From Trypanosoma brucei (Eukaryota), in the NCBI GenBank assembly GCA_000002445.1, contig CP000070.1:192001-256000 (forward strand): a DNA stretch of 64,000 bases, given 5' to 3'. Made by a program: the position numbers and the translations under genes. The notes beneath the pieces were generated by a model. The model saw only the letters and a program-made list of their open reading frames with translations, did not search any database and had not been told where the DNA came from. This document shows, in pieces, positions 30,301 to 58,640 of this stretch (positions are counted from its first letter, which is position 1; each line of letters opens with the position of its first letter).

Positions 30301-33300
30301 CGCTGAGTACAGTGTCGAAATATTCCCACGGACCCTCTGGATCGTCTCCACGCAACGTACCGGTTACAAAGTCCATAACAGCCAGCGACTTTCCCGTTCC
30401 AGTCACACCGTTCAGTAAAACGTGCCGTGAGTTTGCAACAAGAACTCCAAAGAGAGTTATGACGCTGACTGTCTCCGCGGTGGGTACAATGAGATCGAAG
30501 TACGGCAACTCCGGGCTGAAACAGAAAGTGGGCACCAGATGACGCCACGTGACAAACCTCATCGATGCTTTGTGCACAACGTAGTCGTAAACGCTGTTAC
30601 CATCATCAGCCGCGATCTTTCCTGGAAGCAACTCCTCAAAGTGCTTCTTGACAAAAGCACTGAAGCGTTCACGAGAGTCATCCCGAAGGTTACCCCCCAC
30701 TGACCAAACAAACGACATTAAAAAGTACATGTCAAGCAAGGTTTCATCATCCGCAGATACTTGCTCATACGCGATCTCAGGGGCCTTAAATTCCTCTGGC
30801 TCACTCGGCACCAGCTTGACGCCCGAGTATGTCGTCTCAGGTAAGAGATACACGTCATCGTTTTGCGGTTTCGCTTCCTTCGTACGAAGCAGTGGTGGCA
30901 GTAGGTCCTCTTCATCAATAGTTTTCATGAACGCAGCAAGCAGTTCGATGCACGATACTGCTAACTGGGCATCAACAGACCCAATCCACTCCCGACACTC
31001 TTTACGAATGAAGTCAAGGGACATGGGGAGGAAGCGCTCCAGCAGCTCACTTACGCGGTCCGCTCGAAATCTAGGAAACATGGAAGCTTTTTTGGTCACA
31101 AGACTCTTTGCTAGGGGAATCCACCCACGTCCACCGTCCACATAAAACGGTTCCGTGAACACCATACCGCAGCGGGACACAGTTGCGGGTGACGCAACTG
31201 CCAGATCCTGAACTTCAAACATAAAAGTTGCCGTGCTTGGAAGTTTGATGCGCTCACCGTTAAAAAGACACAGCAACTTGTTGTCATCCAACACTGTGTT
31301 CATATTTTCAATCCAAATAGCATCGACAGGTCCGTCGAAAACAATCCACTGACGATCAGGAAGTTCCTGCGCAACTCTTGTAATGGTCCTTGCAATGTTA
31401 CTAATAATACCGTCCGTCCATTCGCGTGTGATTTCATTCACCTGGCCGTAAAGCTCACCCATTGTAACAGACTTTGGATTTAAAAGGTGAATGTGAATGG
31501 TGTTAAAAAGCGGAATGTTGCCCTCTGGATCGTGCCCGTCTGCTTTAATTTGTGTCAGAGCCCCTTGAACAACGTGCATGATAGTCGACTTCCCGCTAAA
31601 AGTTTGACCAACAAGCATTACACCATGACGTACAACGAGTGTGTCGTAAAGTTGCAATGTTTTTGTTATCAACCCTTCGACCACCTGCAACCCTTTTTTC
31701 TCCATATCTTCCCGCACGTAGCGAACTAAGAGGTCACTCTGGGTCTCCTCGATCTTTACAGTGGGAAAGAGATCCTTAATAAGAGCCATGAAAAGTATGG
31801 TGTCGTCACGGAGAAACTTGGGAACATTGGCGTCCCGCATTGCTCTAATCAAAAGCATATCTTCATCATCGTTCGGATGTTGCCGCTTAAGACCTCCAGC
31901 AAGAACGAGAATAGACTTTACCGCACGCATACCAAAGTCGTAGTGATCCTGCTTTGACAACTGCTCGGAGCTTAACTTGTACAACTGCACCATCTTGCGC
32001 GCCAGTGTCCGCGCATCCTTAAATCCTTCAGAGTAAAACATGATTTCAGCAATAAGAGCGTAATCGGGGATCATCATGCAGATGGGACGAAACAGGGCTT
32101 TCAGGTTATCTGGAAGCTCGGTACGACCTGCATAACCAGGGTTCATGGTGATAAAAACACCGAAATTCCTGCTCAGTTTGATCATATGCCCGTCAAAGCT
32201 CATGCTTTCTAGGCGTTGCGCAAGAGCACTAGTAATATCTAACATCTGCTGCGCCACCACAGAGAGCACCTCTAGTTCAATACGGTTGAACTCGTCAAAG
32301 CACGCCCATGCACCCGCCTGCGCTAACCCAGCAAACATACGAGACATAGTCTTGTAGTTGATACCATCAGAACAGTTAAAAACAACAACTTGTCGGGCCA
32401 ACGCTTTCCCCAAGTCCTTCACCGACTCGGTTTTGCCTGTACCCGCAGGTCCCTGGGGAGCGGCTCCAAGATTCATTGCCAGAGCGCTGGTACATGTCAG
32501 AAATGCACGATCGGTCAGCGGGGTAATTACAAGACGCGGTTGATTCCCAAGATACTCATAACCATACCACAGATGAGCATCGCAGTGGTGGATTCCAACG
32601 CTCATGCCAGATTTCACAGAGTCAGTAGCCTCCCAATAATAACGCAGTTGCTGAGCCCAGGCAAAATCACTGAGAGAAGTCACACTGCTCTCATGAAGAG
32701 TATACACGATGTCACGATTGTGCACGTTAAGCACAATTAGTGTACAAACAAGCGTCCGTTGCAACTTAGTTAGGGACCCCTTCACCAAATTGACTGTCTG
32801 AAAAATTTGTTGCTGGTAATGTTCGTGATACTCCAGTAATGAGCCTGCCCTTATAGCCTCTTCGACTTCTTGGGTCCACACAACCATATCAACCGCCTGA
32901 ATACACTGCGCAGGGTGGTTAAAAAACCAGGTTTCACGTGCCTCTGGGGTATACGCCTCAACTGTCTTACGCATATGCATAAGCAACGAGGCTCTCATCA
33001 TACTCTCGATCTGGCACAACCACTTCTCTACATTGCCAATAGGATACACAACTTTCTCAAATTCAACTTCTTCTCCATCTCCAGACATCATCCCCGAAAT
33101 TTCGCTGTATGTATCCCCCGAAAAAATAAGGGATGCTATCGAATCAAAGCATTTGGTGAGATGCGGTTGCACTGCCTTGGGATTACGCACGTCGGAAAGA
33201 ATTGACAACAGTTCGTCGTTTGAGAGGAAGTAGAACCGAGGAAACGCAGCACGCTTCGTCTCGAGACACTCTTCCAGTTTCTTCTGAATGTAATCAATAT

Positions 33301-36300
33301 TCAAATTAGCTTGCTGCAGTTGCTCCAGCACACCGTTCTCGGTGCATATCTGGTAAACGTTCTTGTCGTTATGTGCCTTCATTGTCAGCAGACACAACAA
33401 GGTATCCACCGAGCTGAACTGCATACTTTCTTCAGGAAGCTGGGCTTTGATATCGTCTGAAGAAAAAATAAATTCAAGATACATCCAGTTCTTTTGAAGG
33501 TTAGTCCACTCTTCCATAACATTACCTACGTGTCGAAGGTTGCGAATCCATTCCTCCACACGGTCGCGAACCGGTGCAGCAAATCGTGAAGCCATTATCG
33601 TCTGAAGTTCAACTTGATTATCATCCAGTTGCTGGATTACATCTTCTAGAGCATCCAATATGAAAACACCGTCACGGTTTCTGTAAGGTTTGGTGGTGAA
33701 CGAAATCCCGTTCCATGTCTGTTTAATTTTGTCCAGGTCATTGGATATCTTCCACTCACCGGTTGCTAGCCCGACTTGCTCAGATAGTACCTCCTTGTAT
33801 TCAAGAATATTTAGGTCTTGCAAGTTCCGCAAACTCAAACCTTCGTGATAGCGATTATCCGAACCAGTGGCCTCCCTCAAAACAATATTCCAGTGGCTAT
33901 CAGTCATGTGTTTGTTACCACAATCGTGAATAACGGGCATAATCGCTCTGAGTTCTTGAAGTTCAGTTAAAAGATGCTGCCCCACTTCATCTTCATATTC
34001 CTTTTCCTGGACCTGTCTGTTCAGAGCACCGGTGCGCCTTATGAGTTGGTTGACTTCATCCTCCATGGCAGCTGTGTCCAGTTCTCTAACAGGACTATTA
34101 AACCACATTTCTCTTTGTTTCATAAACGTGTCTAAGAGTGTCCAAGCTTCACGGCGGACAAAAACCAAGCTCCTCATTTCTTTGAGAGTAGACCAGTCGA
34201 TTGGAGGCCGATCAAACAGTTTCGCATATTTGGTCAGCTGCGTTTCACTTGCCTGAATCTCGCTGAGCTTCGTATTAAGTTCCGCTAAGTACTGAATTAT
34301 CGGTTCTACGTTCTCCGTTAAAACAACAAACTCGCTGTTGGTAAGAATTTGCTTGATCGTAACGCACTCGTCTTCGACGTTGCACACGCTGTCTTCCAGC
34401 GTTTGAGTATGAAACGGCAAATTTTCTTCGATAAAGGCTTCGGCATGGAGTCGCGCTTCATCGAAGAGAATCTGAAGGGACATTGCCGTACTGACACTAC
34501 CTAGAGTTCTCTCTCTAAGTTGCTTGTCTTCGTCATCCAAAAACTCCACTTGTTGTCGGTCCATCAAATCGCACAAAGCGTCCGCCTGAGCAACAGCAGC
34601 TTCGGTTTCAGTAGTCTCGCTCACGACCTCCTTGTAATGCGCCACATACTCTGCAAACTGGCTCAGTTGACCCGGGCGTTCATTTAGCACCTGGATCTTC
34701 TGCTTGAAATACGAGTGCAGTGAAGAAATGGCCGTCCTCGTAATTTCCCGAAGTGTTGAATCAATTCCATCACGGACAATCCGCATACGAGGCTCAATTT
34801 CTGTCTTGAGCTTTGCTGCGTTAATCCATAACATATTCCCTACAAATGACGCCATCAGAACGCGTAACGTATCTTGTGCATCCTGGATTTTGTCGTACAA
34901 CTTGAACAGGGTAGAGCACGTTAACGGTCTTTCGCCCGTCTCCTCTTCCCATTGCGCCAATATATCGCTCCATTCCCTCTCCAAGAAATGAATGTGAGGG
35001 AGTGTAACGGCATACGCCTGCATCTTGGTGTTAGCCTGGGCGTAATCGTCGCCAACCAACTGAAGAATACTAGACTGAAGATAGAGCGTGCGTGCGTCAG
35101 ACTCGAGTTCACCTCCTAGCACCCAAAGAGCAGGTGCCTTGGTGAAGTGACCCTTCAGCCGCTTCTGGGAACACAACCGTGTAACCGAACCAGTAACCTC
35201 GATGCATTCGGTGATAAGCTCCGTGCAAAGAGTACGTATAGCCCTCTCAGGTGGATTAAATAACATCTGATCCTCCGTTGGCTGTAACAAAACCTGAAAA
35301 CCAACTGAACGCAGTTCTTGACTGCTCTGGATATGCAATGTGTTATACAGTGTTTTGATCGCCGAAAGGATTACACGAAACACAGTTTCCGATGTAACAC
35401 AGTCCACCATACGAATTAATTGGTCAATTTGTGAGTACTCTACTATACTGCGTTTCAGCTCACGCATTCTTTGTAACTGTTCTCCCCTGGCATCGTGCAT
35501 CGACTTCATCTTACGTTGTGAGCGAAAACTCCCCGACCCTGTAACAATGGCGTTAGCGAGTAGGTACTGCTCTAACGCCTCTTTTGTGTTTATGTCGGGA
35601 ACGTCTGCCTTGCTCTTCATAACTTCAATCAGTTTCATGACACCAGTCTCAATCTTCTCCATACACGCAACGAATGCAGCCGAAGTTTTTTGGCGCTGCT
35701 TCGCCTGCTGCGTCCGAAAGTCCTCGATAGTATAATCGTGCTTTCCCTGCGCCTCGTACAGCACCAATGGATGTGTTGTAAGGTCGTAGGAAGCGTTAAG
35801 AACTTCCAGAATAGGGGTACTGAAAGTGGATTTAGATATGAGTAAGTTCCTTGAAAGCAGCCGCCTCTTGTTGAGAAAGTCCTTAGCACGTACATTTTTG
35901 TACCACCGGAAAAAGGCTTTGTAGACGAGGTATGTCTTGAAGAAGTGTACTTTTCGAAGGACATCAAAAAGCGATGACTCCCGCATCCACTCAGCTAAAC
36001 TAACAACCTCCGAAGGGTGTCCTGGTCGGACATGGACAACCCCTGTTGCACTCATTATGTAGTGCTCCTTCTGCTCCAATCCACGCTTCATAGGGCTAAC
36101 ACATAAATCATAAGGTCTGAATTCGAGTACATGAGGAGCACGACATAAGTATACATATTTCAAATGGCTGCTCGATCCATTGGCTGCAAAAAAAGTTATA
36201 CAATCTTCAGCTGTTTTAAGTTTGCGGATGACGGCTGCATCGTCCGGAGCTACCGGGGGGACTGAGCTCTTGTTAGGTGGCCGCATTGCCCTTTGTATCA

Positions 36301-36655
36301 TACGAAGAATCTCACTGTCCTGCTCGTCTAGATGGGTACGCCAAAAGGGCCGGACCCCCGACACAGATTCAGGTTCCATGTGGTCACCATTTGCACCAGG
36401 ACCATTCAACCCTCTCTCACGGCTAAGGCTACTAGCATCACAAACTTTGTTAGCAACAGGAACACCTCCGTGACGCAAGTTATAACGGAAGTTTTCCGGC
36501 TTTTGAAACTCGTATAGCTGCACAGGATCCAACGTTCGATTAATTTCCTTCTCCACTTGTGCAGCAAGATAGGTTTGTGAGACAGTTTTCCCTCTCTCAG
36601 TCGACTGGTATAAGGTCTCAAGAAATTCAGAACTGCTATCCCTCTTCGACTGCAT
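24317..36655 (-). CDS. dynein heavy chain (4112 aa); the size and short tail suggest an axonemal inner-arm, single-headed type
   Basis: Four AAA P-loops in dynein order: GPAGTGKTESVKDLGKALA (AAA1), GQTFSGKST (AAA2), GVTGTGKS (AAA3), GMGGTGRQS (AAA4). A coiled-coil stalk region and a C-terminal domain are present, and the 12.3-kb ORF is continuous. Confidence 0.95.
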   Translation of the reverse strand: MQSKRDSSSEFLETLYQSTERGKTVSQTYLAAQVEKEINRTLDPVQLYEFQKPENFRYNLRHGGVPVANKVCDASSLSRERGLNGPGANGDHMEPESVSGVRPFWRTHLDEQDSEILRMIQRAMRPPNKSSVPPVAPDDAAVIRKLKTAEDCITFFAANGSSSHLKYVYLCRAPHVLEFRPYDLCVSPMKRGLEQKEHYIMSATGVVHVRPGHPSEVVSLAEWMRESSLFDVLRKVHFFKTYLVYKAFFRWYKNVRAKDFLNKRRLLSRNLLISKSTFSTPILEVLNASYDLTTHPLVLYEAQGKHDYTIEDFRTQQAKQRQKTSAAFVACMEKIETGVMKLIEVMKSKADVPDINTKEALEQYLLANAIVTGSGSFRSQRKMKSMHDARGEQLQRMRELKRSIVEYSQIDQLIRMVDCVTSETVFRVILSAIKTLYNTLHIQSSQELRSVGFQVLLQPTEDQMLFNPPERAIRTLCTELITECIEVTGSVTRLCSQKRLKGHFTKAPALWVLGGELESDARTLYLQSSILQLVGDDYAQANTKMQAYAVTLPHIHFLEREWSDILAQWEEETGERPLTCSTLFKLYDKIQDAQDTLRVLMASFVGNMLWINAAKLKTEIEPRMRIVRDGIDSTLREITRTAISSLHSYFKQKIQVLNERPGQLSQFAEYVAHYKEVVSETTETEAAVAQADALCDLMDRQQVEFLDDEDKQLRERTLGSVSTAMSLQILFDEARLHAEAFIEENLPFHTQTLEDSVCNVEDECVTIKQILTNSEFVVLTENVEPIIQYLAELNTKLSEIQASETQLTKYAKLFDRPPIDWSTLKEMRSLVFVRREAWTLLDTFMKQREMWFNSPVRELDTAAMEDEVNQLIRRTGALNRQVQEKEYEDEVGQHLLTELQELRAIMPVIHDCGNKHMTDSHWNIVLREATGSDNRYHEGLSLRNLQDLNILEYKEVLSEQVGLATGEWKISNDLDKIKQTWNGISFTTKPYRNRDGVFILDALEDVIQQLDDNQVELQTIMASRFAAPVRDRVEEWIRNLRHVGNVMEEWTNLQKNWMYLEFIFSSDDIKAQLPEESMQFSSVDTLLCLLTMKAHNDKNVYQICTENGVLEQLQQANLNIDYIQKKLEECLETKRAAFPRFYFLSNDELLSILSDVRNPKAVQPHLTKCFDSIASLIFSGDTYSEISGMMSGDGEEVEFEKVVYPIGNVEKWLCQIESMMRASLLMHMRKTVEAYTPEARETWFFNHPAQCIQAVDMVVWTQEVEEAIRAGSLLEYHEHYQQQIFQTVNLVKGSLTKLQRTLVCTLIVLNVHNRDIVYTLHESSVTSLSDFAWAQQLRYYWEATDSVKSGMSVGIHHCDAHLWYGYEYLGNQPRLVITPLTDRAFLTCTSALAMNLGAAPQGPAGTGKTESVKDLGKALARQVVVFNCSDGINYKTMSRMFAGLAQAGAWACFDEFNRIELEVLSVVAQQMLDITSALAQRLESMSFDGHMIKLSRNFGVFITMNPGYAGRTELPDNLKALFRPICMMIPDYALIAEIMFYSEGFKDARTLARKMVQLYKLSSEQLSKQDHYDFGMRAVKSILVLAGGLKRQHPNDDEDMLLIRAMRDANVPKFLRDDTILFMALIKDLFPTVKIEETQSDLLVRYVREDMEKKGLQVVEGLITKTLQLYDTLVVRHGVMLVGQTFSGKSTIMHVVQGALTQIKADGHDPEGNIPLFNTIHIHLLNPKSVTMGELYGQVNEITREWTDGIISNIARTITRVAQELPDRQWIVFDGPVDAIWIENMNTVLDDNKLLCLFNGERIKLPSTATFMFEVQDLAVASPATVSRCGMVFTEPFYVDGGRGWIPLAKSLVTKKASMFPRFRADRVSELLERFLPMSLDFIRKECREWIGSVDAQLAVSCIELLAAFMKTIDEEDLLPPLLRTKEAKPQNDDVYLLPETTYSGVKLVPSEPEEFKAPEIAYEQVSADDETLLDMYFLMSFVWSVGGNLRDDSRERFSAFVKKHFEELLPGKIAADDGNSVYDYVVHKASMRFVTWRHLVPTFCFSPELPYFDLIVPTAETVSVITLFGVLVANSRHVLLNGVTGTGKSLAVMDFVTGTLRGDDPEGPWEYFDTVLSAQSRARDIEDRLDGKLYKLRSNAIGPKPGKRAVFIVDDLNMPALERYGASPPLELLRQLITQGGFYDKRKSPATFKEVHDVVFLTACGVPGGGRNEMTKRLTSRFHLLCQPSFSDHSIRRIFGCILHGFLSAWEQPDVNALSSVLVEAIKECYYLISTEKLPTPKRSHYTFNLRDFSKVVQGIMQVSPTSAPTREILLNVFVHEVSRVFHDRMIDDGDRRWWWKTLSGVSQRVLKMNWDPRLENVIFGDYMRRDRSQYAEIQTGEGLIEVLREYQNGYNIESNGTCELVFFKDAIHHISRICRIFRQPRGHALLVGMGGTGRQSLCKLAAFMCNLAVHEVTITRSFNMAEFRERLKGILMESGCKDNPSVFFLTDNQIVQEEMLEDVNNLLNTGEVPGLMQNEDIDQIVEAVRPLASAAGKKEARNAIFSHFVTLCRNNVHVVLALSPVGEPFRRRLRMFPSLVNCCTIDWFDQWPADALHSVAQHIFSELPLDEEMKNGLIKLCVSIHIDVQNRSEEFFEELHRRNYTTPSSYLELLNCYHQLLSEQEEQTIAQMKRYQAGLDKLQSTQCTVDEMKEQLVQMQPKLLQAAQDTEEIMTKVKLEQESAQVVRTECSKEEEAAMAIRREADGIRAECQAELDKALPILRAAENALAELRPDDIREVKSFQKPAARVVLVLEAVLILLGERDLSWDRAKLVMGRMDFIKDLQNYKKDELTERTIRSIQKYVNNPEFQPQEVAKSSKACKSLSMWVLAINNYYEVVKVVAPKRERLAEAEAKLSVATATLREAQDRLKSIEDKINGLKRDMQENIEKKNKLEADIALTKARLNRSEQLMSGLSREQDRWHSSITFLQDEKLGLPGKVALAAGCIAYLGPFTGPYRKRMLTAWWENCKEFGVPIGNSVFDLTTLVSPAKVSSWSAAGLPQDPVSTENGVIVTKSKRWCLCIDPQGQACAWIRAMERENNLRTIRLSDPSYMRTLENAIRVGLPVLIENVEETVDAALDPVLLRQTYRSQGRLLLKLGDVEIDYDPGFRMYMTSKLPNPHYLPELQIKVTVINFTVTQGGLENQLLTDVVRYECAELEAKASNTQKDISDGKTQLKAIEDRILHLLTSSTGNILDNEPLVRTLSEAKDTSEAVTEALNLAEQTQKDIEVACNRYRPVATRGAVIYTVLSHLARVDHMYQISLDFFKQLFVKSMHRTEKVSDVDERVAILLPAVTLDSYRTVCRGLFERDKPLFVALIFSEIYRQEGIISDAEWEFLLKGSEGRSLVDIDNDSWPVWMTEAAWNELTALSMALPETFGDIKDTIYDNEDDWSTWFESDTAYEWFPSTTQGLTLFQKVLVLKACREDLTSHGLSIVCSHYLGKVFTESPAFDLEACFADSSPTAPIIFVLTAGIDPTVLFTEFAERKGFAEKKLVLSLGQDQGPKAEEMIRRGSKDGWWVYLQNCHVYESWMSTLERCVEKLHISTTLHSDFRLWLTTMPTRSFPVLLLQSGVKVVKEPPKGLKANIRDSFCNEVTPALWDGRPENPTTWRRLLCSLAYFHAVIQERRKFGPLGWNIPYEWNQSDFSASLHTLQVYVPTGVSESVPWSALRYMVGTINYGGRVTDFLDSRALVNILDAFFNENVLQPGQFNITSDGVYCIPEDVESLDAVKEYLADLPAFESPELFGMHSNADIACNRTTARNQLAVMLSVQPRTKGTAGRSPEDKVLEMVSEFQTRLPEAIDKTKAHPDTYQLTEGGVMISLGTVVSQEIDVFNSIIRKLEATLLELKRGIKGEVVMSARLESMFDACLLGQVPQIWHENSYLSRKPLASWFQDTLLRVEFFRDWNDNGMPMSFWISGFFFPQGFLTGVLQAHSRENMIPIDDIRFRTNVTRYEVVEDIVNTPKAGVLIHGLFLEGARFTFEGMSLCESNPRELYTSMPLINLEPQRLKDQDKSKPVYECPVYKTSARAGALSTTGLSTNYVISLDLSPGSSPPEHWIRRGVALLCMLDD

Positions 36656-38946
36656 TGTTTTTTTTTGTGCTTCTTCCCTTGACTAGGAGTTTTCAGTTTT
36701 GTAAAATTTATATCCGATCAAAATGGTGGAGAAAGTTATACACGAATACGCACATACGACGCAAATAATGCAAAAGATACGATGAATGCGCTAACCGCGG
36801 AAGCAAGATCGGCTCCTCGATCCCATTCGGTGGCACAGAGTCACAGACAAGTTTTCATATGCGTCACGTCTGCGCGCAAATGCATGGGGACGGAGACAGC
36901 GTGTAGTAGAGGCAAATGTGGCACGATACCCAGATGAGTAGATAACCACAATGACTCACAGCAAAATAATAATAACTCAAGTGTCCCGATGGCAAAAACT
37001 ATACAAACACAGTTGCAATGACGGCAGAATCACCAAAAGAGAAAAATCACCGCAAATAGATTGATGTGATGCTATAAATCAAATATCCCCTTTGACAAAG
37101 CGATCCAGAGACCGCGCAGTCCGTACACAACCAGCCGTTTTCCCAACATATTCGTCTAAAAATAGGCAAGTGTGCCCAATGCATCAACACGGTAATACTG
37201 TACCAAAGGTTTGCCGTGCTGACTCCATCCTAGTATCACAAACAGTCCAGAAATGCAGTCCTACGATACTTAAATCCTGGCCTACATTGAAGAAACCTAT
37301 AAGTTCATGGCATCGATGCCAACCTTCAAGTATGTCACGTCAACGTAAAATGTGAGCCCAACCAGAGCTGGAGAGTCGGCTTCATCCACTCAAACCCACC
37401 AAACTTCCCAGAAAAGGTCAAAAAAATATACACTAAATAAGCGAGTAACGAACACAATAGATCGCATGGGACCCGCAGAGCTAAAGCAACGGCCCCCAAC
37501 AAAAAAGAAAAAGACAAATACCCCAAACACGCTGCACGGACCAACACCAAACCACTTTCGCTCATTGAAAACTGGGGGAAGCCTGCGACAACTTAGTTTC
37601 CAGCGCAACTGGGAGAAGTAGAACAATGACACTTACGAAAAGCACGTTCTGGTAGGCTCCACCTAGACCAAAAGGGACGCCGATACGTCACTGCTCTGGT
37701 CGGGTGGAGCAGTCCATCGACAATGTGAGGGAAGGGGAGAGGAAATAGGCAACCGTACTTCTCTAGATCCCCTATTCGACAAACTCGGCACTTTAAATCT
37801 CAACGACTGCCTCAGGTGCAATTATCCATTTACAAATGACATTCCACCCACCTGCCATTATCCAACAGTACCTCAGTTGAAGCAAAAAGAACACAACAAG
37901 CAGGTGATCAAGGCACCCAGGAGACACAGTAGACATGCGGAACCCGCAGCACAACGAGAAAACCACAGCGACAATCCCAGGGACCACAACAACTGGAATC
38001 AAGGATCCTCCACCAACCAGCGGAACATCAGCAAGGGACACTACACACTACTAACCTCCGCAAACCACACTCCTCTCACGAATACACATAGCACAGCGGC
38101 ATCGCCTGACCACGCCAGGCGCCTTCCCATGGTGTTGCAACGCAGCGTCATCTTCCACAGTGAGAAATGTCGCAGCAGGACCCTCCGGGAAAGCCGGAGT
38201 GACGTGGTCGAGGCGGTCACACCTAAAGCGGAGCGGACCGTCATACTCGAAATGTGAAACAGTATCACCGACACCGAGGCCCCTAGCCTGGCACTCAGTA
38301 GAGAAAGTGCCCATGACCCCCACCCCTCTTTTTCAGCGCGGAAGCCAAGAACAGCTGACGTCCCAGCGTCAGAAGAATAAGACGGAGGAATACGCCGCCG
38401 GTAAAGGAGGCAGCTCCTCTTGGAGAACTAGCTATTGAATAGAACGGCACAACCGGGTTTTTTGAGGAAGCGAAAACCGTGGAGTGGAACGGGTCCGTCC
38501 GTTCCAGAATGCCACACCCGTAGCAAGAAACGGGACCCTTGCCTCCCGTTGCTGAAAGGACTGATTTGGCTGAGCGAAGAGGCCCGAACAATTGGTAGTC
38601 GCGAGAAGGGGTACGTTGTGAAAGGAACCATTCGGATTCAAGGAACTACTAACAAACTACAACGCAAGGTCCTCCCTAGATTAGTGCGTGTTAGTGGATA
38701 TGGGGTTGCAACCCCGACAAAAATGGGGGCGTCAAAGCGGTGGTACCTAGTGAATTGATTCGGTACTTTTTTGAACTTTTTGAATTTTCTTCGTGGCCCT
38801 GTGTGAGCCCGCTCGTTTCGCTGAAGCTCTCGACTCCAACCGCAAAGAGTGTTCCACGTTGCTGTTAGGGGGGTTCGTGGTCGATAACCCCTTTGTTGTT
38901 AGTATCGCGTGCCTCCATTCACCTTTTGCTTTCTGTGTTAGAGCCC

Positions 38947-39675
38947 TCACAGTCGGTAGATGGAGCAGAGAACTCCCTGCAACAGGCTCATTCCAAGAAC
39001 GTCTGCCAGCCATTTCAGCAGCCGTTGCAGCCCTATCTCTAATGCTAAGCATTCCGCTCTGTAACTGCATGAGAGTTCCCCTGCTCCGGTCTTGGGTGCG
39101 CAAATCAGCGTGTTGTTTCTATAGAGCAGGGCAGCTGCTCCGGACTTCTCGCCGAGGGACACGGATGTATCAGCCCACAATTCGTAGTGCTCTCGTCGCT
39201 GTGGCTCCTTCACCCTCCGTGCAAAATGCCGTGCAATCCACTTTTCGGAAGCCTCCCTTTTGACGTCGTCAGGGTCATCAGCGCACACAGGCTTTATCTG
39301 CGTGTGAAATAGCGGTCGGCAGCTGTGGCGGAGTGTCGATGTCTCTAGTGGGTGCTCGCGTGGCTCAATGTGGAGGTGGGGGTAGGACCGCATGATGCGG
39401 GAATGTAGGGCTCTGACTGGGTGTTTGCTGTGGTATACTTCCTCAGCACTGCGGCGCAAACATCCGCCTCGTGACTCACACATCAGCATGAATTTCATGC
39501 TGCGCACAAGAGTGGCCGTCTTGAGTGGCAGGAGGTTTGCTTCCAGCAGAGAGTCCTCTTTGCGCGTCCCATGCGGTATGCCGGCTATGATGCGACTACC
39601 CTTGTGTTGTGCTGCTGCAAGGAGGTCGCGACTTCGTTCCGAAGCGTCCCAGTACCATACCTCAATGCCATACAT
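38947..39675 (-). pseudogene. retroelement-derived RNase H-like ORF fragment (degenerate ingi/L1Tc-type non-LTR retrotransposon relic)
   Basis: The 242-aa minus ORF ends ...ELWADTSVSLGEKSGAAALLYRNNTLICAPKTGAGELSCSYRAECLALEIGLQRLLKWL. This matches the RNase H pattern (TDGS ... GGAGAVL ... NNRAELxALxxAL). It sits isolated in a non-coding strand-switch region with surrounding frames broken. Confidence 0.5.
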
Positions 39676-41903
39676 GGTGTGTGCCTGTAAGAGGTAAAAG
39701 AACCGCAGAAGCTGGTGTGCTTAGCCCTGCGTGAAAGCAGATATTGCTCCTATTTGAAGTAGCTCAGGTCAATTTTTTCGTACTGTCTGTGCAGCGCGCC
39801 CTACCATTTCAGCTGTGGAATAGTATCATAAAGAGAAACTTTTCAAGTTCTTTCAAGTCCCGCCCACACTCCATCGGCGTTTGGCGTGAGCTGTATTCAT
39901 TTCACAGAATCAAAGGATGTGCTTTTCATCTGCGTTACGTAAACTTCCATTAGGTACTCTCAAGACAATGGTGCCACCATGTCCACTTACCTCCGCAGTG
40001 TGTGTTTGATTGTTTCCTTCTTCGTTTGAGGAAGCAGCAGCGTTAGGTTATGTGCCGCTGCTCGACGCTCAACTGCTTCGTTTCCTGTACTGAGCTCAGC
40101 ATGCCCCATTGCGCCGAAGGCTTTTCACCACTGACAAATACCACAACCATACACGATGTTGGTAAGGCGCGGCTAAGGAATCCTGTTTAGTTTGGAAACC
40201 ATTTTGCTGTGCATAAACTTTGTCCAGTCCCTAACTGTTGTGGTGCGAGCTGGGCTTCAGTTATTCTTTCCCTCAATCTTCATGGAGAGCTCGTGAATGC
40301 CACTAGTTCATTTGTATTTTAATATTTCTTCTTCTTACCATCTTTCTGGATATGTAGAGGAACTCCACACTTCCATGCTGTTGGTGCAATTCCTTTCTGT
40401 GCATTCATATTGAACTGTTAAAGCACCAGTATTGGCACTGTGTGATCGAAGTAACGCAGTCACTCTCCGTGCAAGCGATTGTGGGCCGTCACTGAGGTAT
40501 GAAGTGTTTATTTTAGCGATTTTTCGGGTCCATCACTCATTGTTGGTTGGAATTCGGCGGCCTCCGTTTGTCTCAGCGGCTTTGTGTCTGAGCTGCCATA
40601 TATATCTTCTTATGTGATGCACGTGCTGCAACAAAATGTCGGGCCTTCCGAAAATCTCTGATAGCAGCTTCACCTACTGTGAGTGCCGTAATCATTGGGT
40701 GCTTGGCGATCGCAGCGAATAAGCATTCCTGATGCGCCAGTTGCAGCGGTTCTGTACTTCGTCTTGTGTGGGCGGCACGAAACACTTACGGGTCGCGTAC
40801 GGTCCAGCTACTCTCCCACAATGATGTCCAGTTTCTTCCTATTCGACCAATGGCGACACCCCACGATCTTCCTATGAAGGCCAGTAAGCTAAGGCGTCAA
40901 GTGCTGTGGTGTGACTCTGCTCCCTTAGGGAACACCTTCGTCGGTTCCAAAACTTTCGGCGCAGATCAGGTGTTTTTCAAATTCGTCTCTTCATCATATT
41001 CTAACCACCCCACAGAGTCACCAGGCAGGACTGTGAAGTGTTCTCCATTTGGCTTTGATCCATGAGCCTGTGATAGTGCTTTGACGCTAAAGGTTCAGGA
41101 TATCCGTTTTGTTTCGGCAACCATGTTGAAGAACATATGGTGGTGGCGACCACCTGCCTACTACGATGATTTCGCATGTAACGGTCAATTCCTTGACAGT
41201 GGCATATAAGTGTTGCCCTTCCGTGCTGTCGCGTGTGCACGGTGTATTCGGTAGTATTACAGAACGGAAAATTGTTATTTATGCACCACTTTATAAGGGA
41301 CCAATGCCTGGTGTTCGGTGGGGGTTGCGTGATCTCACGCCAAGGCGCATGCATTAGAATTCGTGTCGACATGTTGCGGGCGCCGACCTGCTTTTTGCTC
41401 AAAGGTTGGATATGGTGAGCATACGACGTCGTAGCAGCGGCAATTGGCATCTTTCTAGTTGGTTGCATTCCGGAGTGCACATGCCCGGTGCATTCAATGA
41501 TGGTACCGGCCGCCTCTGCCATCAGATCTTCCCCAGCGAGTGTGTGTAAGTCGCCGCCGTCACGGTTGTAAGCTATGCTATGACGTTGGCGACCGGAAAT
41601 GCTAAAGTGCCCCGGGTTTCTTTTGTCGTCTTTGCTGTCCTCGGCTGACAGAAGACCATCTTTTCGTAATAGAGGTTTTTGCGGAGTATTGATTTCTTTC
41701 CTTTTGGAACTCTGCGCAGTTCCTCCGCTTTTCGCGTGAGGGTAGGCCTGAGTCGTCCTTCGAATCACAGGACGGCGGCACCTCACTCCGGAAAATATTC
41801 GTGACGGCGCGGTACCGCGTTCGCAGTGACTGGGAAGGAAGAAAAGCGGTGCTCTGGCGCGGCACGGCTGGTCCCTCTGCGTTGCCCTGGCATCTGTGGA
41901 CAT
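38947..41903 (-). mobile_element. possible extent of a degenerate non-LTR retrotransposon relic (DIRE-like), including an upstream 300-aa basic ORF (41001-41903)
   Basis: The RNase H-like fragment at the 3' side and a co-oriented 300-aa ORF upstream in an otherwise ORF-poor region. No intact RT motifs were identified by eye, so the extent is a guess. Confidence 0.3.
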
Positions 41904-43739
41904 TTGAAGACGGTGTTCTGTCGGTCCAGAGCCCTATCGGCTGGCGTCTGCCCCTGAAAATGCGAGGTAAGAGAGTGAGCGGCGCCGCGTTGGATGGGTA
42001 GGAGGGTCGCACCATGGAATTGATGTGTGTGATGGCCTTCCTGCCTTAGCCGATTCCAGTGGAGGTTCTCGGAGGTGATGAGTTTTTACTTTCGAACTGA
42101 CTACATGCCGCAGCATGGGCGTTCATCGACCGCTGGACTCTAGCAGCCGTGGGGCGTGCTGATTTCGGGAGGAGCAACAAGTGCCGAAGCCTCCCCGAAA
42201 CATCCTCAGTTCGGGTCGGACACGGCAGCTGCTCCCCGTTCCGGTTGAGGCGTTGCTGCGCTTTCGAATCGTCGGCGGTTAAGGGATTCTAGTCCCACGT
42301 GAAAGAGACCACTTGTCAATACGATCGCCGCCGGTTTCGGCTAACCATTCTGATTGTGCTTTGCAGTGCGTCACTTGCCACGCTACTGCTTCAGAGCGTG
42401 GCTGCTCCGGAAGGGTTTTTGGCGAGCCCCCTGGCGGTTGTTTTCACGCTGGCGTTAATCGGACATGATCCCCCGTTTGTTGTCTGATAACGGAGGTAGC
42501 GAAAGAGCATGTGGCGTCGTCACATGGGAATAAGGGGAGCGGCGCCAGGCATTTTGCTGTGCAAACCCCTCTTTGTTATACAGTTTGCTGTCTCCTTTCC
42601 CATTGGGGTGCTGATGAAGTGCCGAAGAATGATCTTGTGAGGTAGGGGCGACTTTACTAGTCGGGGGAGGCGTCTGCTCTATTACTCTGGAGGTGTAACG
42701 CGTAAGTTAGGTGGATGTTGGAGCGTATGCTGGTAGTATTTCAATGTGGTGCAAAATTTTTTGTTTTCCTCCAGCGAAGTTATAAGTGCTCCATGAGCGT
42801 GCGGGTTCTGGGGATGTAGGAATCTGTGTGAACGGATCGTGTTTGGATGGGAGTCGCACATTTTCTCTTCGAGAGAGTGTTGGGAGGTTTGCTCCTTTTA
42901 ATTCCCTTTGTCTGAACAGCAGGAGTTTTCTGATTCTTTGTGGCTGGCCTCTTTTGCTCATCAAGTGTTATTATTATTTTTTAAATTTCATCGCCTACGG
43001 TACGTGGACGGGGAGCTGTGCTGATATCACCGCGCTTCCGTGTTTCGCTTCGTACTTGTTTATTGTTTTGCCGTCTTATCACTCTACGAACCGTACCTCG
43101 TGGATGGTGAGCAGTCTTGTTAGCTGCTTCGTTGCCCGAGGTAAAAGGTACGCGCTGCTTTTGGGTCGAGGAAGTCCCTGCGTTAGGGTGATTCACTCAC
43201 GCTGTGTTGGTCGTGAAGATGCGCTTCCGCTGCATTTCTTGGGGCACACGTGTCTGGAAAAGAAATTCCCCCGACTCACTTGATCGTTTGGGCTCCGCTG
43301 TGGTATGTCGCAACACATAACCACGATTTATCCTTCATAAAATATCTTCGTGTCAAGGAATTGAACTCGAAAACACTAAAGGAGGTGCGGAAAATGCTAA
43401 TATACAGTGCTGTTCCGCTTCGTTTGCTCACGTGCTCGCGTGAAGCGGGCCCATATTGCATGCGTGCCAAAACATGGGTTAAGTTGTCGTGTGTTTCGTC
43501 CTTTCCTCTTATCTTGTGCCCTGTCCCACGCTGTGCGACCTTACATTGTGACTGTTGGTTGGATAAATTGGGTATCGTGATTAAAGGAGTGTACCACTCC
43601 TTTCGTAGGTTTACATATGGGCTACTCTTCGCTTTGATGCTGCCCTTTTTCGCTCTTACTGGGCGGTGATTCCCGTGCACTTAGCACCGAAACAATCGTA
43701 TTTCAACATTTGAGAACTAACTCATAAATATAGCTTTTT

Positions 43740-43920
43740 TGTCCAAGATCGGTCCTTTATTTTTTAATGTTATACAAACTGTTGATTTATTTAAAATATG
43801 AACGGTCATCCCAGTTATCAGAGCTTTTATGCTTGTGCTCGTTGTTAAATTCAGCTCCACCTTTGTTCCAGTCGCTGAAAGGGTATTTCACTCTTCTTAT
43901 TTTCCTCTTTTGGTTAGTAG
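43740..43920 (+). promoter_or_regulatory. polypyrimidine-rich tract upstream of the CCCH gene start (probable trans-splice acceptor / 5' UTR region)
   Basis: T/C-rich plus-strand sequence ending in AG dinucleotides just before the ATG at 43926. Confidence 0.4.
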
Positions 43921-43925
43921 TAGCG

Positions 43926-45158
43926 ATGTCTCGTCGGCGTCCTAATGTGATGTTAACTATCCCTAAGAATACGCTACAAGTCTTTGATATGGGGTTAGAT
44001 TTCCGTTCTTACCTATCCCGCGTGGATGTCAATGGACTACCAGTTTTAGGCAATGTCGTATCCTATGAGGCATCAAAACTGACTGAAGTATTTACTCCGA
44101 CTGTAGGGTTGTTAGTGACGATACTGCACATGCTTGCTCATTGCACCTCAAGTTGCTCCGCCGTAGCTTGGCTGAAAGCCTATGATGCCATCCAAAAGAT
44201 GTATATCGAAAATTCAGAGGAAGAAAACACGGAAGCCGTTCGATACGCTGTGGAGGCTAGAGCGGCTATCAAGGATTATTTGACTGGTGACGCTGTACCC
44301 GGTACAAACCTCCTTTGTGAGAAATTGTTGACTCTTCTCGACCAGCAAAGTGGCATCCATGGTTCTCAAGCTCCATCTCAACGGAAGGTCCCGCGGGAAC
44401 CGAAGGGGGCTTTTTGCAACCTACATCTATCGGACCAAAAGTGCTACCAGGATTTTGCTTGTAATCAGCTTCATTTACAAGAAGTGAAGACGGTGCGTCA
44501 CAGGAAGATTTTTTACATGCGACTTATTGAAGTGCTAAAAGCGGAAAAGCGATCTCGCCAGCAAATCCGCCACCGAATAAAGGACTCAGTTTTCTTTGCC
44601 CGATATGGCAATAAGGTTACCGTTCAATGCCAGGGTAAATGGATTCCATTTTTCAAAACAGTTTATACGGACGGAAGGCTAGAGCAGGCGCTTCGAACTC
44701 AGCATTTCGCTTGTGGTGACAGCGCTTGCGCCGACGAAAATTGTCTGGGAATACATCCACAAGACCGGCGCGTTACCACGTCCAGTAAACTGATGGATCT
44801 TAATAACCCCGATGTAGTACTTCAACAGATAGAGGAAGAAGCGGAGCGACACCTGTCGATGGAGGGGGCATTCAACGATCACGAAGCAGAACATATCTCC
44901 GCAGCCGCAAGTTCATCTTCGATGCCTTCGCCTACATCGGAAATGTGGAGAAATACTGTAAGGGAATATGTGCGGCAAACGGGAATCCCACAGGTGGAGG
45001 CCGATGAGTCGTTACTCAGGACACTGCAAGATGCAAATGTCCTGGCCACACCAACGGCCTCAACAGAGAGCTTAACGCCACTCTTAGACGAACTCGATAT
45101 GCGCACGTTCAGCTCGAGCTCTCCGGTCAGAGAGCATCCCAATGCTGAAATAGGGTGA
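43926..45158 (+). CDS. CCCH-type zinc-finger (ZC3H family) RNA-binding protein, 410 aa
   Basis: Canonical C-x8-C-x5-C-x3-H finger CNLHLSDQKCYQDFACNQLH plus a second variant C-x4-C-x4-C-x3-H (CGDSACADENCLGIH). The ORF is open from 43767, but the Met at 43926 (MSRRRPNV) follows a pyrimidine-rich tract at 43740-43920, so I call it the start. Confidence 0.6.
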   Translation: MSRRRPNVMLTIPKNTLQVFDMGLDFRSYLSRVDVNGLPVLGNVVSYEASKLTEVFTPTVGLLVTILHMLAHCTSSCSAVAWLKAYDAIQKMYIENSEEENTEAVRYAVEARAAIKDYLTGDAVPGTNLLCEKLLTLLDQQSGIHGSQAPSQRKVPREPKGAFCNLHLSDQKCYQDFACNQLHLQEVKTVRHRKIFYMRLIEVLKAEKRSRQQIRHRIKDSVFFARYGNKVTVQCQGKWIPFFKTVYTDGRLEQALRTQHFACGDSACADENCLGIHPQDRRVTTSSKLMDLNNPDVVLQQIEEEAERHLSMEGAFNDHEAEHISAAASSSSMPSPTSEMWRNTVREYVRQTGIPQVEADESLLRTLQDANVLATPTASTESLTPLLDELDMRTFSSSSPVREHPNAEIG

Positions 45159-54016: not shown

Positions 54017-54080
54017 TACTTTCTGTGTTCTTTTTCTTTTCTTTTTTCTTTTCTTTTTTTCTTTTCTGTTTTTTTTTTTA
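54017..54080 (+). repeat. long T/C tract with (TTTTC)/(TTCTT)-like pentamer periodicity
   Basis: ttctttttcttttcttttttcttttctttttttcttttctgttttttttttta. Confidence 0.85.
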
Positions 54081-55208
54081 CTAATAGTTTATCTAACTTC
54101 ACTTTCTGCCACGACCACTCCCCGTCTCTTCCCGCTTGTCACTGCAGGGGAGAGTCGAGGGGGTGTTGCGACGCTCGTTTGGGACGAAGCGATTATTCAC
54201 GTAATGTGCCTCTCCTCCCTTTTGTCACAACTGATCCCGTCGGCAAGAGTGGCTTTTTTTTAAAAAAAATTCCCCTTCTTTTTTTTTCCCATTCATTACT
54301 TCTTTTCCCTCATATTCTGTGTTTTTCTTCCCCCTTTCTTCGGTAACACAGTTTATATTGTTTTGTAAGGCACCAGGCGTAACGTACGTGCCGTTTAATA
54401 TGAGAAGATATATAGTAACAATAATAATGATGGTTTTCTGTTTCTTCTTTTTTTCATTTGTGAGCCGGAAAAAAAAACCTACTATCCCACCTGCAATTTT
54501 TTCCCCTTTATATTTATTAATATTGTTAGTATTCTTCTGACTACCATTATTATTATTATTATTACTATCACTATCACTATTGATTTTATTGTTATTGTTA
54601 TTCTTGTCATTTGGATCATTTTGTCCCCTCCACCGCATATGCTTTTTTTTTTTATTGGATGTGTTGAGTGGAGGGCTGCGAAACTAATGATATGGCCTCT
54701 CATTTGACAAGTGATTTCATTCGTAGTGGAAAGAAGCGAACGAATAGACGCAACAAATTGAAAACGGGTAGGCGAAGGAAAGGATGTATTTTTTTTTTTA
54801 AAAAAAAAAATGGAGTTTTCTCGCCTTGTGAGAGTATATAGGATCAGAAAGAGAGAAAGAGAGGGCAAAAAAAAAAAAGAAAGAAAAGGTGGAAGAAGAA
54901 GGAGGCGTTACATCACGGAAAGGAAGTTAACATTGTTTTGCGCCATCCGTTTCAAAGCTTTACGTACCCGCATGTACATAATCGTAAATAGTCCGCGGAT
55001 AGCGGATGCGCGGACTTGCAGTTAGTAAGGGTTTGGGAGAAGAAGATGTTTAATGGGGTGTAAAGTTTTTGATGTATGTGTGTGTGGTTATTAATATGAG
55101 TATATGGTGAGAAGAATATGGAAAGGAAAAAGGGGTGTAACGGAGTTTGGGTTCGGTGGCTGTAATTGGCTTTGGGCGCCGTTACTCCTCATAGTTTGAA
55201 AGCATCCA

Positions 55209-55246
55209 TTTTCTTTTCTTTTCTTTTTTTTCTTTTTTTTTTTTTT
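55209..55246 (+). repeat. T/C tract ending in T14
   Basis: ttttcttttcttttcttttttttctttttttttttttt. Confidence 0.85.
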
Positions 55247-58549: not shown

Positions 58550-58640
58550 TAAGAGAACAACCGCATCTGTACTTTACGCTTTACTCCTTCTACCTCACTT
58601 GATTTATGTCTGAATTTTTTGTTCCCCCAGTAGCAACACC
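58550..58640 (+). promoter_or_regulatory. polypyrimidine tract upstream of NMD3
   Basis: ctttacgctttactccttctacctcacttgatttatgtctgaattttttgttccccc. Confidence 0.4.

What the first reader, a model, noticed from the sequence alone, without database searches (positions are those of the whole stretch)
36656..43925. 7.2-kb divergent strand-switch region with mirrored strand-composition skew
Gene orientation flips from all-minus to all-plus across this ORF-free interval, which is the hallmark of a bidirectional pol II transcription start region in kinetoplastids. On the plus strand the left flank (about 36.95-38.1 kb) is strikingly A+C-rich, which is G+T-rich in the sense of the leftward array. The right flank (about 42.7-43.3 kb) is G+T-rich in the sense of the rightward array. 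Sense-strand GT-richness on both sides matches the GT-rich promoter elements reported at T. brucei transcription start regions (Wedel et al. 2017). At about 7 kb the region is also unusually long.
Basis: partly seen in the sequence, partly recalled or inferred. Interest (0 to 1): 0.6.

Follow-up and report, generated by a model that had tools for sequence, protein, structure and literature searches.

The report
Known trypanosome strand-switch region holding retroelement
This is the already catalogued divergent transcription-start region between the dynein gene Tb927.7.920 and ZC3H17 (Tb927.7.930) on Trypanosoma brucei chromosome 7; it is long because a decayed ingi-type retroelement sits in its middle, and its mirrored G+T skew is real but is the same kind of skew seen in ordinary spacers between genes.

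Summary
The window is T. brucei TREU927 chromosome 7, 192,001-256,000. Three published transcript coordinates match at a fixed offset of 192,000.

**Confirmed**
- The strand switch at 36,656-43,925 is real.
- The mirrored skew is real. The left flank is the most A+C-rich 1.15-kb stretch in the 64 kb, and the right flank is among the most G+T-rich.
- Kolev et al. 2010 already list Tb927.7.920 and Tb927.7.930 as first genes of two divergent Pol II units.

**Corrected**
- The interval is not ORF-free. About 38.3-42.0 kb is a degenerate ingi-type retroelement (DIRE) on the minus strand; homology is firm for 38,971-41,357. It carries a 242-aa RT-linker/RNase H remnant and a 300-aa ORF.
- Its antisense composition explains the mild G+T excess of the middle.
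- 7.3 kb lies inside the published 0.9-14 kb range. The syntenic regions in T. cruzi, T. rangeli and T. melophagium are 0.5-1.0 kb and keep a HIT-family gene that is missing here.
- G+T richness does not mark a promoter. Ordinary internal spacers have the same density of GT-rich 10-mers and more of the published Wedel 10-mers.

Verdict: a known kind of region, low novelty.

The parts
24317..36655 (-). Dynein heavy chain gene (4,112 aa), Tb927.7.920; first gene of the leftward polycistronic unit
   Evidence: ORF. The orthologous gene in syntenic loci carries dynein Pfam domains. Kolev Table S6 names Tb927.7.920 'dynein heavy chain putative', and Table S14 lists it as first ORF of a divergent minus unit.
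36656..38300 (-). Left flank: non-coding and G+T-rich on the minus (sense) strand. It is the most skewed stretch of the window and the candidate dispersed promoter and 5' leader of the leftward unit
   Evidence: Sense keto skew is +0.21 over 36,656-38,400 and +0.275 over 36,950-38,100. It is the extreme of all 1,151-bp windows. No ORF longer than 126 aa. No homology to the HIT gene, the DIRE, or any syntenic locus. Only one site with Wedel 10-mers, at 37,983.
38301..38970 (.). Unassigned GC-rich (51-56%) segment in which the skew changes sign; possibly the degraded 3' part of the retroelement
   Evidence: Cumulative minima fall here: keto skew at 38,676, G-C at 38,364, T-A at 38,736. No protein, RNA or nucleotide match.
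38971..41357 (-). Degenerate ingi/L1Tc-related retroelement (DIRE), the part with detectable homology. Endonuclease end, RT and RNase H pieces are collinear but lie in three reading frames. Extrapolated full extent is about 38.3-42.0 kb
   Evidence: tblastn hits at 38,971-39,819, 39,900-40,055 and 40,238-40,495. Profile HMM positions 876-1118 at 39,013-39,711 (E 4e-34), 559-588 at 40,325-40,414 (E 0.05), 214-255 at 41,214-41,345 (E 0.46). blastn to DIRE copies on another chromosome gives 92-95% at 39,001-39,693 and 68% at 41,186-41,357. Domain map of the reference proteins. Composition equals that of other DIRE copies.
38947..39675 (-). 242-aa ORF: remnant of the post-RT linker plus the N-terminal third of RNase H
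   Evidence: 84% identical to 'reverse transcriptase [T. b. equiperdum]' and 49% to 'Tbingi protein [T. grayi]'. Aligns to P0064 residues 753-985, where RVT_1 ends at 720 and RNase_H starts at 933. No Pfam hit of its own.
41001..41903 (-). 300-aa ORF inside the 5' part of the element; annotated 'hypothetical protein' in T. equiperdum assemblies
   Evidence: The weak profile hit at 41,214-41,345 is in its frame. No Pfam hit.
41500..42250 (.). GC-rich peak (57-60%) at the extrapolated 5' end of the element, directly left of the right flank. It resembles the GC-rich core that abuts the GT tract in the short syntenic regions
   Evidence: Composition. The GC-rich core lies next to the GT tract in T. 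cruzi, T. rangeli and T. melophagium. The L1Tc Pr77 signature was not found.
42251..43925 (+). Right flank: non-coding and G+T-rich on the plus (sense) strand. It is the candidate dispersed promoter and 5' leader of the rightward unit, ending in a polypyrimidine tract and an AG splice acceptor at 43,916-43,917
   Evidence: Sense skew is +0.18 overall and +0.25 over 42,700-43,300. The window's plus-side maximum is at 42,570. The published transcript 5' end 235,918 equals window 43,918. A G+T-rich tract upstream of ZC3H17 is also present in T. cruzi, T. rangeli, T. melophagium and T. vivax.
43926..45158 (+). ZC3H17 (410 aa), Tb927.7.930; first gene of the rightward unit. The 463-aa ORF starting at 43,767 is an over-extension
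   Evidence: 100% identical to 'zinc finger CCCH domain containing protein 17'; orthologues are 402-414 aa. Kolev Table S1 lists this ORF as having a misannotated start, because the splice site lies inside it.

Best explanation
The interval is the divergent strand-switch region between Tb927.7.920 (dynein heavy chain) and Tb927.7.930 (ZC3H17) on T. brucei TREU927 chromosome 7, at 228,656-235,925. It is a known Pol II start region for two polycistronic units.

It has three parts:
- a 1.65-kb flank that is G+T-rich in the sense of the leftward unit;
- a central degenerate ingi-type retroelement (DIRE) of about 3.7 kb, in minus orientation;
- a 1.7-kb flank that is G+T-rich in the sense of the rightward unit.

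The most likely working is as follows. Transcription starts dispersedly and outward in each flank, from two unidirectional start regions about 4 kb apart. The retroelement lies upstream of both and is normally silent.

The sense-strand G+T excess of the flanks is the general signature of transcribed non-coding DNA in trypanosomatids: transcription-linked mutation bias plus U-rich and polypyrimidine processing signals. It may contribute to directional initiation, as Wedel et al. showed, but it does not by itself mark a promoter.

The region grew from an ancestral 0.5-1 kb by retroelement insertion, and a HIT-family gene that is the first leftward gene in stercorarian trypanosomes was lost.

Shown: the identity of the locus, the strand switch, the skew values, the retroelement, the synteny, and the published listing as divergent units. 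Inferred: the positions of initiation inside the region, the silence of the element, and the order of evolutionary events.
For: **Locus identity**
- ORF 43,767-45,158 equals Tb927.7.930 at 235,767-237,158.
- The published splice site 235,918 equals 43,918, right after the AG at 43,916-43,917.
- Poly(A) sites of Tb927.7.930 and Tb927.7.940 fit the same offset.

**Start region**
- Both genes are listed as first ORFs of 'Divergent' Pol II units, defined from 5'-triphosphate RNA-seq.

**Retroelement**
- Evidence. The pieces are collinear in the order endonuclease, RT, RNase H, but lie in frames 2, 1, 2 and 0.
- Middle-region composition read on the minus strand: KT -0.092, T-A -0.15, GC 0.52. Independent DIRE copies: KT -0.058, T-A -0.12, GC 0.52.

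**Flank skew**
- Extremes.

**Silence of the middle**
- Kolev Table S7 lists no novel processed transcript on chromosome 7 between 57,350 and 264,480.
- Staneva et al. 2022 report that dTSRs show one or two SPARC peaks, and that promoter-proximal ingi-derived RT/RNase H genes are silent in wild type and derepressed without SET27.
- Their list includes a Chr7_core 'RNAseH (derived from ingi...)' gene next to a 'hypothetical protein' with no TREU927 orthologue. This fits the two ORFs here, but the identity is not verified.

**Retroelements at strand-switch regions are typical**
- These regions have the highest transposable-element (TE) density in T. brucei, with 54 elements.

**Synteny**
- The dynein/ZC3H17 divergence is conserved. 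The strand-switch region is 0.53, 0.55, 1.0 and 1.9 kb in T. cruzi, T. rangeli, T. melophagium and Leishmania.
- The interior has no nucleotide similarity outside the T. brucei group.
- The HIT gene is absent from the window. No salivarian or Leishmania protein appears among the named hits of its 130 homologues.
Against: - No ChIP-seq or TSS read data could be mapped here, so where initiation occurs inside the 7.3 kb is inferred.
- The Kolev table gives units, not coordinates.
- The element is in the same orientation as the leftward unit, as expected if it were co-transcribed with it.
- The GC-rich core next to the right flank resembles the compact ancestral arrangement, which fits a single core at about 42 kb equally well.
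- The link between the SET27-dependent chromosome 7 genes and these two ORFs rests on description, adjacency and approximate gene order only.
- The element's ends are extrapolated. Firm homology covers 38,971-41,357.
Confidence: 0.75

Rival explanations
1. There is one compact bidirectional promoter at the GC-rich core near 41.8-42.3 kb. Leftward transcription starts there and runs through the retroelement in its sense orientation, so the left flank is merely a long transcribed spacer and leader ahead of the dynein gene.
For: - In T. cruzi, T. rangeli and T. melophagium the whole strand-switch region is a GC-rich core (55-59%) directly followed by the GT tract upstream of ZC3H17. The leftward gene starts at the core.
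- The same core-plus-tract order is seen here at 41.5-43.3 kb.
- The element and its two ORFs are on the leftward strand.
- Sense-oriented retroposons predominate inside directional gene clusters in Leishmania.
- The left flank has the GT-10-mer density of an ordinary transcribed spacer.
Against: - No processed transcript from the element was reported in procyclic cells.
- ingi-derived genes near promoters are reported silent in wild type.
- The left flank is more skewed, and over a longer stretch, than any internal spacer of the window.
Confidence: 0.22
2. The mirrored skew is only a passive mutational footprint of transcription or replication direction. It has no role in initiation; promoter function lies in chromatin or in undetected motifs.
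For: - Skew tracks transcription direction throughout the window, in spacers and weakly in coding DNA.
- The literature treats it as a consequence of constitutive transcription.
- Wedel 10-mers and GT-rich 10-mers are no denser in the flanks than in internal spacers.
- The Leishmania syntenic region shows no skew, yet it is also a divergent switch.
- Staneva et al. found no shared motif under promoter peaks.
Against: - Synthetic GT-rich sequences drove directional transcription and H2A.Z deposition in T. brucei.
- A GT-rich tract upstream of ZC3H17 is kept in four other Trypanosoma species although the sequence itself is not conserved.
Confidence: 0.3
3. This is a centromere-type strand-switch region, with retroelement-rich DNA serving kinetochore assembly.
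For: T. brucei centromeres lie between directional gene clusters and contain DIRE or ingi elements (PMC1868937).
Against: - Those regions also carry a 2-8 kb or larger array of AT-rich tandem repeats, at a single site per chromosome.
- No tandem array was found in 30-64 kb or 1-30 kb of the window.
- The region has no direct or inverted repeats beyond one 19-nt chance pair.
- Its GC content is 44-60%.
Confidence: 0.02

Closest known systems
Divergent Pol II transcription start regions (dTSRs) of T. brucei (Siegel 2009; Kolev 2010; Wedel 2017; Staneva 2022)
   Same: Head-to-head polycistronic units; G+T excess on each coding strand; no tRNA or other RNA genes. This very gene pair is listed as divergent units in Kolev Table S14.
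   Different: Nothing essential. The hallmark Wedel 10-mers (G10, (GT)n) are nearly absent from the flanks. A retroelement separates the two halves.
DIREs, degenerate ingi/L1Tc-related elements (Bringaud and co-workers)
   Same: The order endonuclease, RT, RNase H is collinear with ingi-clade proteins. The element is broken by frameshifts and stops and sits in a strand-switch region, the richest compartment for such elements in T. brucei.
   Different: The 5' 77-79-nt signature was not found with the L1Tc version. The 3' half (rest of RNase H, zinc finger, A-tail) is not detectable. Only the 0.7 kb around the 242-aa ORF is 92-95% identical to copies on another chromosome, while the rest is at most 68% identical.
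Syntenic dynein/ZC3H17 strand-switch regions in T. cruzi, T. rangeli, T. melophagium and Leishmania
   Same: Same flanking genes, same divergent orientation, and a GT-rich tract upstream of ZC3H17 in the Trypanosoma species.
   Different: They are 0.5-1.9 kb instead of 7.3 kb, with no retroelement and no mirrored A+C-rich left part. The stercorarian species have an extra 381-aa HIT/DcpS_C-like gene as first leftward gene.
Centromeric strand-switch domains of T. brucei (Obado 2007)
   Same: A region between directional gene clusters that contains a DIRE.
   Different: No AT-rich tandem repeat array.

Membership tests
Divergent Pol II strand-switch / transcription start region of T. brucei | Two gene arrays pointing away from each other across a non-coding gap | tested here: met
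   ORF layout. First genes identified as dynein heavy chain and ZC3H17.
Divergent Pol II strand-switch / transcription start region of T. brucei | Enrichment of primary (5'-triphosphate) transcripts at the start of both units | tested here: met
   Tested by look-up, not by mapping reads. Kolev 2010 Table S14 lists Tb927.7.920 and Tb927.7.930 as first ORFs of 'Divergent' units, and the text says the enrichment was seen at every divergent unit.
Divergent Pol II strand-switch / transcription start region of T. brucei | H2A.Z/H2B.V, H4K10ac, H3K4me3 and SPARC enrichment over 5-10 kb | not testable with these tools
   No read data are available here.
GT-rich promoter elements of Wedel et al. 2017 | G and T excess on the coding strand relative to the non-coding strand | tested here: met
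GT-rich promoter elements of Wedel et al. 2017 | Enrichment of the published coding-strand 10-mers (long G or T runs, (GT)n) compared with DNA that is not a start region | tested here: not met
   2 hits in the left flank (one site) and 5 in the right, with no G10 or (GT)n. Internal spacers carry more. The density of 10-mers with at least 9 G/T equals that of internal spacers.
GT-rich promoter elements of Wedel et al. 2017 | Orientation-dependent promoter activity and H2A.Z deposition in a reporter context | not testable with these tools
   This needs an experiment.
DIRE (degenerate ingi/L1Tc-related element) | Similarity to the ingi-clade polyprotein with domains in the order endonuclease, RT, RNase H | tested here: met
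   There is also nucleotide similarity to other DIRE copies.
DIRE (degenerate ingi/L1Tc-related element) | Coding capacity destroyed by frameshifts, stops and deletions | tested here: met
   The homologous pieces lie in frames 2, 1, 2 and 0 of the minus strand (coordinates). The longest ORFs are 242 and 300 aa.
DIRE (degenerate ingi/L1Tc-related element) | 77-79-nt signature at the 5' end of full-length elements | tested here: inconclusive
   The L1Tc Pr77 sequence (from PMC1874656) gives no match above background anywhere in the window. The T. brucei version of the signature was not available, and the element may be 5'-truncated.
Centromeric strand-switch domain of T. brucei | Array of AT-rich tandem repeats (2-8 kb or more) next to the retroelements | tested here: not met

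The most novel reading that the evidence does not exclude
The locus may be a natural experiment in promoter architecture. In the salivarian lineage, a retroelement insertion and the loss of the first leftward gene could have split a compact ancestral bidirectional start region (0.5-1 kb) into two unidirectional ones about 4 kb apart.

On this reading, the 1.65-kb left flank is a G+T-rich tract that arose de novo where a gene used to be. It is now the most skewed stretch in 64 kb. This would show that directional GT-rich start regions can be rebuilt quickly.

A smaller oddity is the 0.7-kb RNase H patch, kept 92-95% identical to copies on another chromosome. It would point to ongoing gene conversion among retroelements parked at start regions.
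Probability: 0.25. Interest if true: 0.4.

Novelty: already known. Interest (0 to 1): 0.15.

Why it matters
- The result removes a false lead. A mirrored G+T skew at a strand switch in a trypanosome is expected, and this particular region is already in the literature as a divergent Pol II start region.
- It gives a caution for sequence-only scans. In this window, G+T richness and even the published promoter 10-mers are as common or commoner in ordinary internal spacers, so they cannot be used alone to call promoters.
- Long 'empty' strand-switch regions should first be checked for decayed retroelements.
- The comparison with other species gives a clean example of how such a region expands: 0.5-1 kb to 7.3 kb through one retroelement and one gene loss.

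Tried and rejected
- **tRNA and tmRNA scan of the whole window:** none found.
- **Rfam:** nothing at gathering thresholds over the window. At E up to 1 over 36.5-44 kb there was only a chance-level snoRNA-like hit (E 0.89).
- **Tandem repeats and direct/inverted repeats in the region:** none of note, so there is no centromere-type array and no mirrored sequence, only mirrored composition.
- **Pfam on the five largest ORFs inside the region:** no family. The identity of the 242-aa ORF came from homology searches instead.
- **L1Tc Pr77 signature** (blastn-short, nhmmer, Smith-Waterman): no match above background.
- **Remnant of the HIT/DcpS_C-like gene:** tblastn with three orthologues and a 42-sequence profile against the six-frame translation gave nothing on the minus strand of the region.
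- **Left flank as the 3' part of the retroelement:** rejected. It has no similarity to the 3' parts of other copies, and its skew on the element's sense strand has the opposite sign.
- **Purifying selection on the 242-aa ORF:** dN/dS is 0.4-0.5 on 24 substitutions, too few to distinguish from neutrality.
- **TSR coordinates:** Wedel's supplements hold no chromosome 7 coordinates. Siegel 2009 is not held.
- **Gene number:** my recollection that ZC3H17 is Tb927.7.2140 was wrong; the coordinates show it is Tb927.7.930.
- **Link to SET27-dependent genes:** I could not tie Tb427v9_001101600/001101700 to the two ORFs beyond description, adjacency and rough gene order.

Full report
**1. What the window is**

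The first plus-strand gene after the gap is ZC3H17, and the last minus-strand gene before it is a 4,112-aa dynein heavy chain.

Published coordinates fix the source:
- Kolev et al. 2010 (PMC2936537) Table S1 gives Tb927.7.930 as ORF 235,767-237,158 with its transcript 5' end at 235,918.
- The window has an ORF of the same length at 43,767-45,158, and an AG at 43,916-43,917 directly before 43,918.
- The poly(A) sites of Tb927.7.930 (237,598; 3'UTR 440) and Tb927.7.940 (239,289; 3'UTR 25) fit the same offset of 192,000.

The window is therefore T. brucei TREU927 chromosome 7 (v4 coordinates), 192,001-256,000, and the finding is 228,656-235,925. A T. b. equiperdum chromosome carries the same region at 98.75% identity.

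**2. Check of the observation**

The orientation switch is real, and so is the skew.
- The plus-strand keto skew is -0.20 to -0.28 in every 500-bp window from 36,751 to 38,250.
- It changes sign at about 38.4-38.7 kb.
- It stays at +0.05 to +0.16 up to 42.2 kb, then reaches +0.20 to +0.26 at 42,251-43,000.

The left flank is the single most skewed 1,151-bp stretch in the 64 kb. The right flank is in the top 1.5% of 601-bp stretches.

Two parts of the description fail.
- **Not ORF-free.** There are minus-strand ORFs of 242 and 300 aa.
- **Not symmetric.** The switch point is 2 kb from one gene and 5.2 kb from the other.

**3. What fills the middle**

The 242-aa ORF is 84% identical to a protein named 'reverse transcriptase' in T. 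b. equiperdum and 49% identical to 'Tbingi protein' of T. grayi.

I collected long ingi-clade proteins with a library-wide search and compared them with the window. They match the minus strand at 38,971-39,819, 39,900-40,055 and 40,238-40,495. A profile built from 14 of these proteins hits three collinear places:

| Profile positions | Window coordinates | E-value |
|---|---|---|
| 876-1118 | 39,013-39,711 | 4e-34 |
| 559-588 | 40,325-40,414 | 0.05 |
| 214-255 | 41,214-41,345 | 0.46 |

The reference proteins have endonuclease, RVT_1 and RNase_H domains in that order. This places the window pieces as follows:
- the 242-aa ORF is the post-RT linker plus the first third of RNase H;
- the 40.3-40.5 kb piece is the start of the RT domain;
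- the weak 41.2-41.3 kb match falls at the end of the endonuclease domain.

The pieces lie in different reading frames.

Nucleotide comparison with three DIRE copies on another chromosome (L011) gives 92-95% identity for 39,001-39,693 and 68% for 41,186-41,357. The spacing is consistent with the protein-level hits. Extrapolating from both references puts the 5' end at about 41.8-42.0 kb. The profile puts the 3' end near 38.3 kb.

The element is therefore a DIRE. It spans at least 2.4 kb (38,971-41,357) and probably about 3.7 kb, about half the region.

Its composition read on the minus strand is KT -0.092, T-A -0.15, GC 0.52. The independent copies have KT -0.058, T-A -0.12, GC 0.52. The mild plus-strand G+T excess of the middle is thus a property of an antisense retroelement, not of a promoter.

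No tRNA, Rfam family, tandem array or inverted repeat is present.

**4. Are the flanks special?**

The flanks are special in extent, but not in kind.
- Whole internal spacers have sense-strand skews of +0.02 to +0.20, against +0.21 and +0.18 for the flanks.
- Wedel et al. defined their GT-rich elements from 10-mers at least sixfold enriched on the coding strand of start regions, mostly long G or T runs.
  - Of these 157 10-mers, the left flank has two overlapping hits at one site. The right flank has five. Neither has a G10 run or (GT)n.
  - Ordinary internal spacers have G10 runs at 9,100, 14,921 and 23,905, (GT)n at 8,400 and 60,524, and 45 hits in 52.3-58.7 kb.
- The density of 10-mers with at least 9 G/T on the sense strand is 61 and 45 per kb in the flanks, and 55-87 per kb in most internal spacers.
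- What sets the flanks apart is fewer A+C-rich 10-mers and greater length.

The literature treats strand skew that follows transcription as a general feature of these genomes.

**5. Synteny**

The dynein/ZC3H17 divergence is conserved:

| Species | Gap |
|---|---|
| T. cruzi | 0.53 kb |
| T. rangeli | 0.55 kb |
| T. melophagium | 1.0 kb |
| Leishmania | 1.9 kb |

The three stercorarian species carry a 381-aa HIT/DcpS_C-like gene as first leftward gene. That gene leaves no trace in the window. Among the named hits of its 130 homologues there is no T. brucei, T. congolense, T. vivax or Leishmania protein. So it was probably lost.

Only the flanking coding sequences align between species.

In the stercorarian species the gap is a GC-rich core followed by a strongly G+T-rich tract (+0.3 to +0.46) upstream of ZC3H17, with no mirrored left part. 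T. vivax also has a G+T-rich tract of more than 2.6 kb. Leishmania has no skew.

**6. What is already known about this locus and this kind of region**

- Kolev et al. list Tb927.7.920 and Tb927.7.930 as first ORFs of two 'Divergent' Pol II units. They state that 5'-triphosphate tags were enriched at every divergent unit, in both directions.
- They report no novel processed transcript anywhere between 57 and 264 kb of chromosome 7.
- Strand-switch regions are published as 0.9-14 kb long and as the compartment richest in transposable elements in T. brucei.
- Start regions are 5-10 kb broad. Divergent ones have one or two SPARC peaks.
- Promoter-proximal ingi-derived genes are silent unless SET27 is removed.
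- The SET27 list contains a chromosome 7 core 'RNAseH (derived from ingi...)' gene next to a 'hypothetical protein' without a TREU927 orthologue. This fits the two ORFs here, but I could not verify it.

**7. Conclusion**

The promoter-element argument is weak, because the same composition and motifs occur in ordinary spacers.

Where initiation occurs inside the region is the only open point. There are two candidate arrangements:
- **Two outward-facing start regions around a silent element.** I favour this on the absence of processed transcripts and on the SET27 data.
- **A single core near 42 kb.** This is favoured by the ancestral arrangement and by the element's orientation.

Existing public data sets would settle it.

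Noticed in passing
window 1315-7900: About 6.6 kb inside the minus-strand array has coding-like GC (about 50%) and near-zero skew. It has no ORF above 135 aa on either strand, no repeats, no Pfam hit and no ingi-profile hit. It may be a decayed pseudogene or an unrecognised element.
   Followed up: partly
window 52269-58694: A 6.4-kb ORF-poor, low-GC (33-46%) stretch inside the plus-strand array has sustained sense G+T skew (+0.145), poly-T/CT tracts and 45 of the Wedel 10-mers. By these criteria it looks more promoter-like than the strand-switch flanks. Kolev Table S7 lists no novel transcript there.
   Followed up: partly
window 39001-39693 versus L011 10430-11071, 14439-15079, 17488-18129: Only the 0.7 kb around the 242-aa ORF is 92-95% identical to three DIRE copies on another chromosome; the rest of the element is at most 68% identical. 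This suggests a gene-conversion patch or a younger fragment. dN/dS is 0.4-0.5 on 24 substitutions, which is not significant.
   Followed up: partly
L011 8725-19836 (T. b. equiperdum CM010677.1, 844-866 kb): An inverted pair of 4.5-kb DIRE copies 99% identical to each other, with a third partial copy between them, lies at the end of a plus-strand gene array.
   Followed up: no
L004 8322-9467, L005 7843-8994, L006 8302-9447 versus window 36656-38400: A widely conserved 381-aa HIT/DcpS_C-like gene is the first leftward gene in T. cruzi, T. melophagium and T. rangeli. It is missing from the T. brucei window and the Leishmania locus. No salivarian trypanosome protein appears among the named hits of its 130 homologues.
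   Followed up: partly
window 43767-43925: The 463-aa ORF of Tb927.7.930 over-extends the gene by 53 codons. The mapped splice acceptor (AG at 43,916-43,917) leaves an 8-nt 5'UTR before the ATG at 43,926. This agrees with the 402-414-aa orthologues and with Kolev Table S1.
   Followed up: yes
window 38947-39675 and 41001-41903 (possible link): Staneva et al. 2022 Supplementary file 3 lists two adjacent Chr7_core genes induced in set27-null cells. Tb427v9_001101600 is an 'RNAseH derived from ingi' gene (log2FC 4.5) and Tb427v9_001101700 is a 'hypothetical protein' (log2FC 7.1). Neither has a TREU927 orthologue. They may be these two ORFs, but the identity is not verified.
   Followed up: partly
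window 9100, 14921, 23905 (minus strand): Runs of 10 or more G on the sense strand occur in three ordinary spacers of the leftward array. This is the most enriched Wedel 10-mer, yet none occurs in the strand-switch region itself.
   Followed up: no
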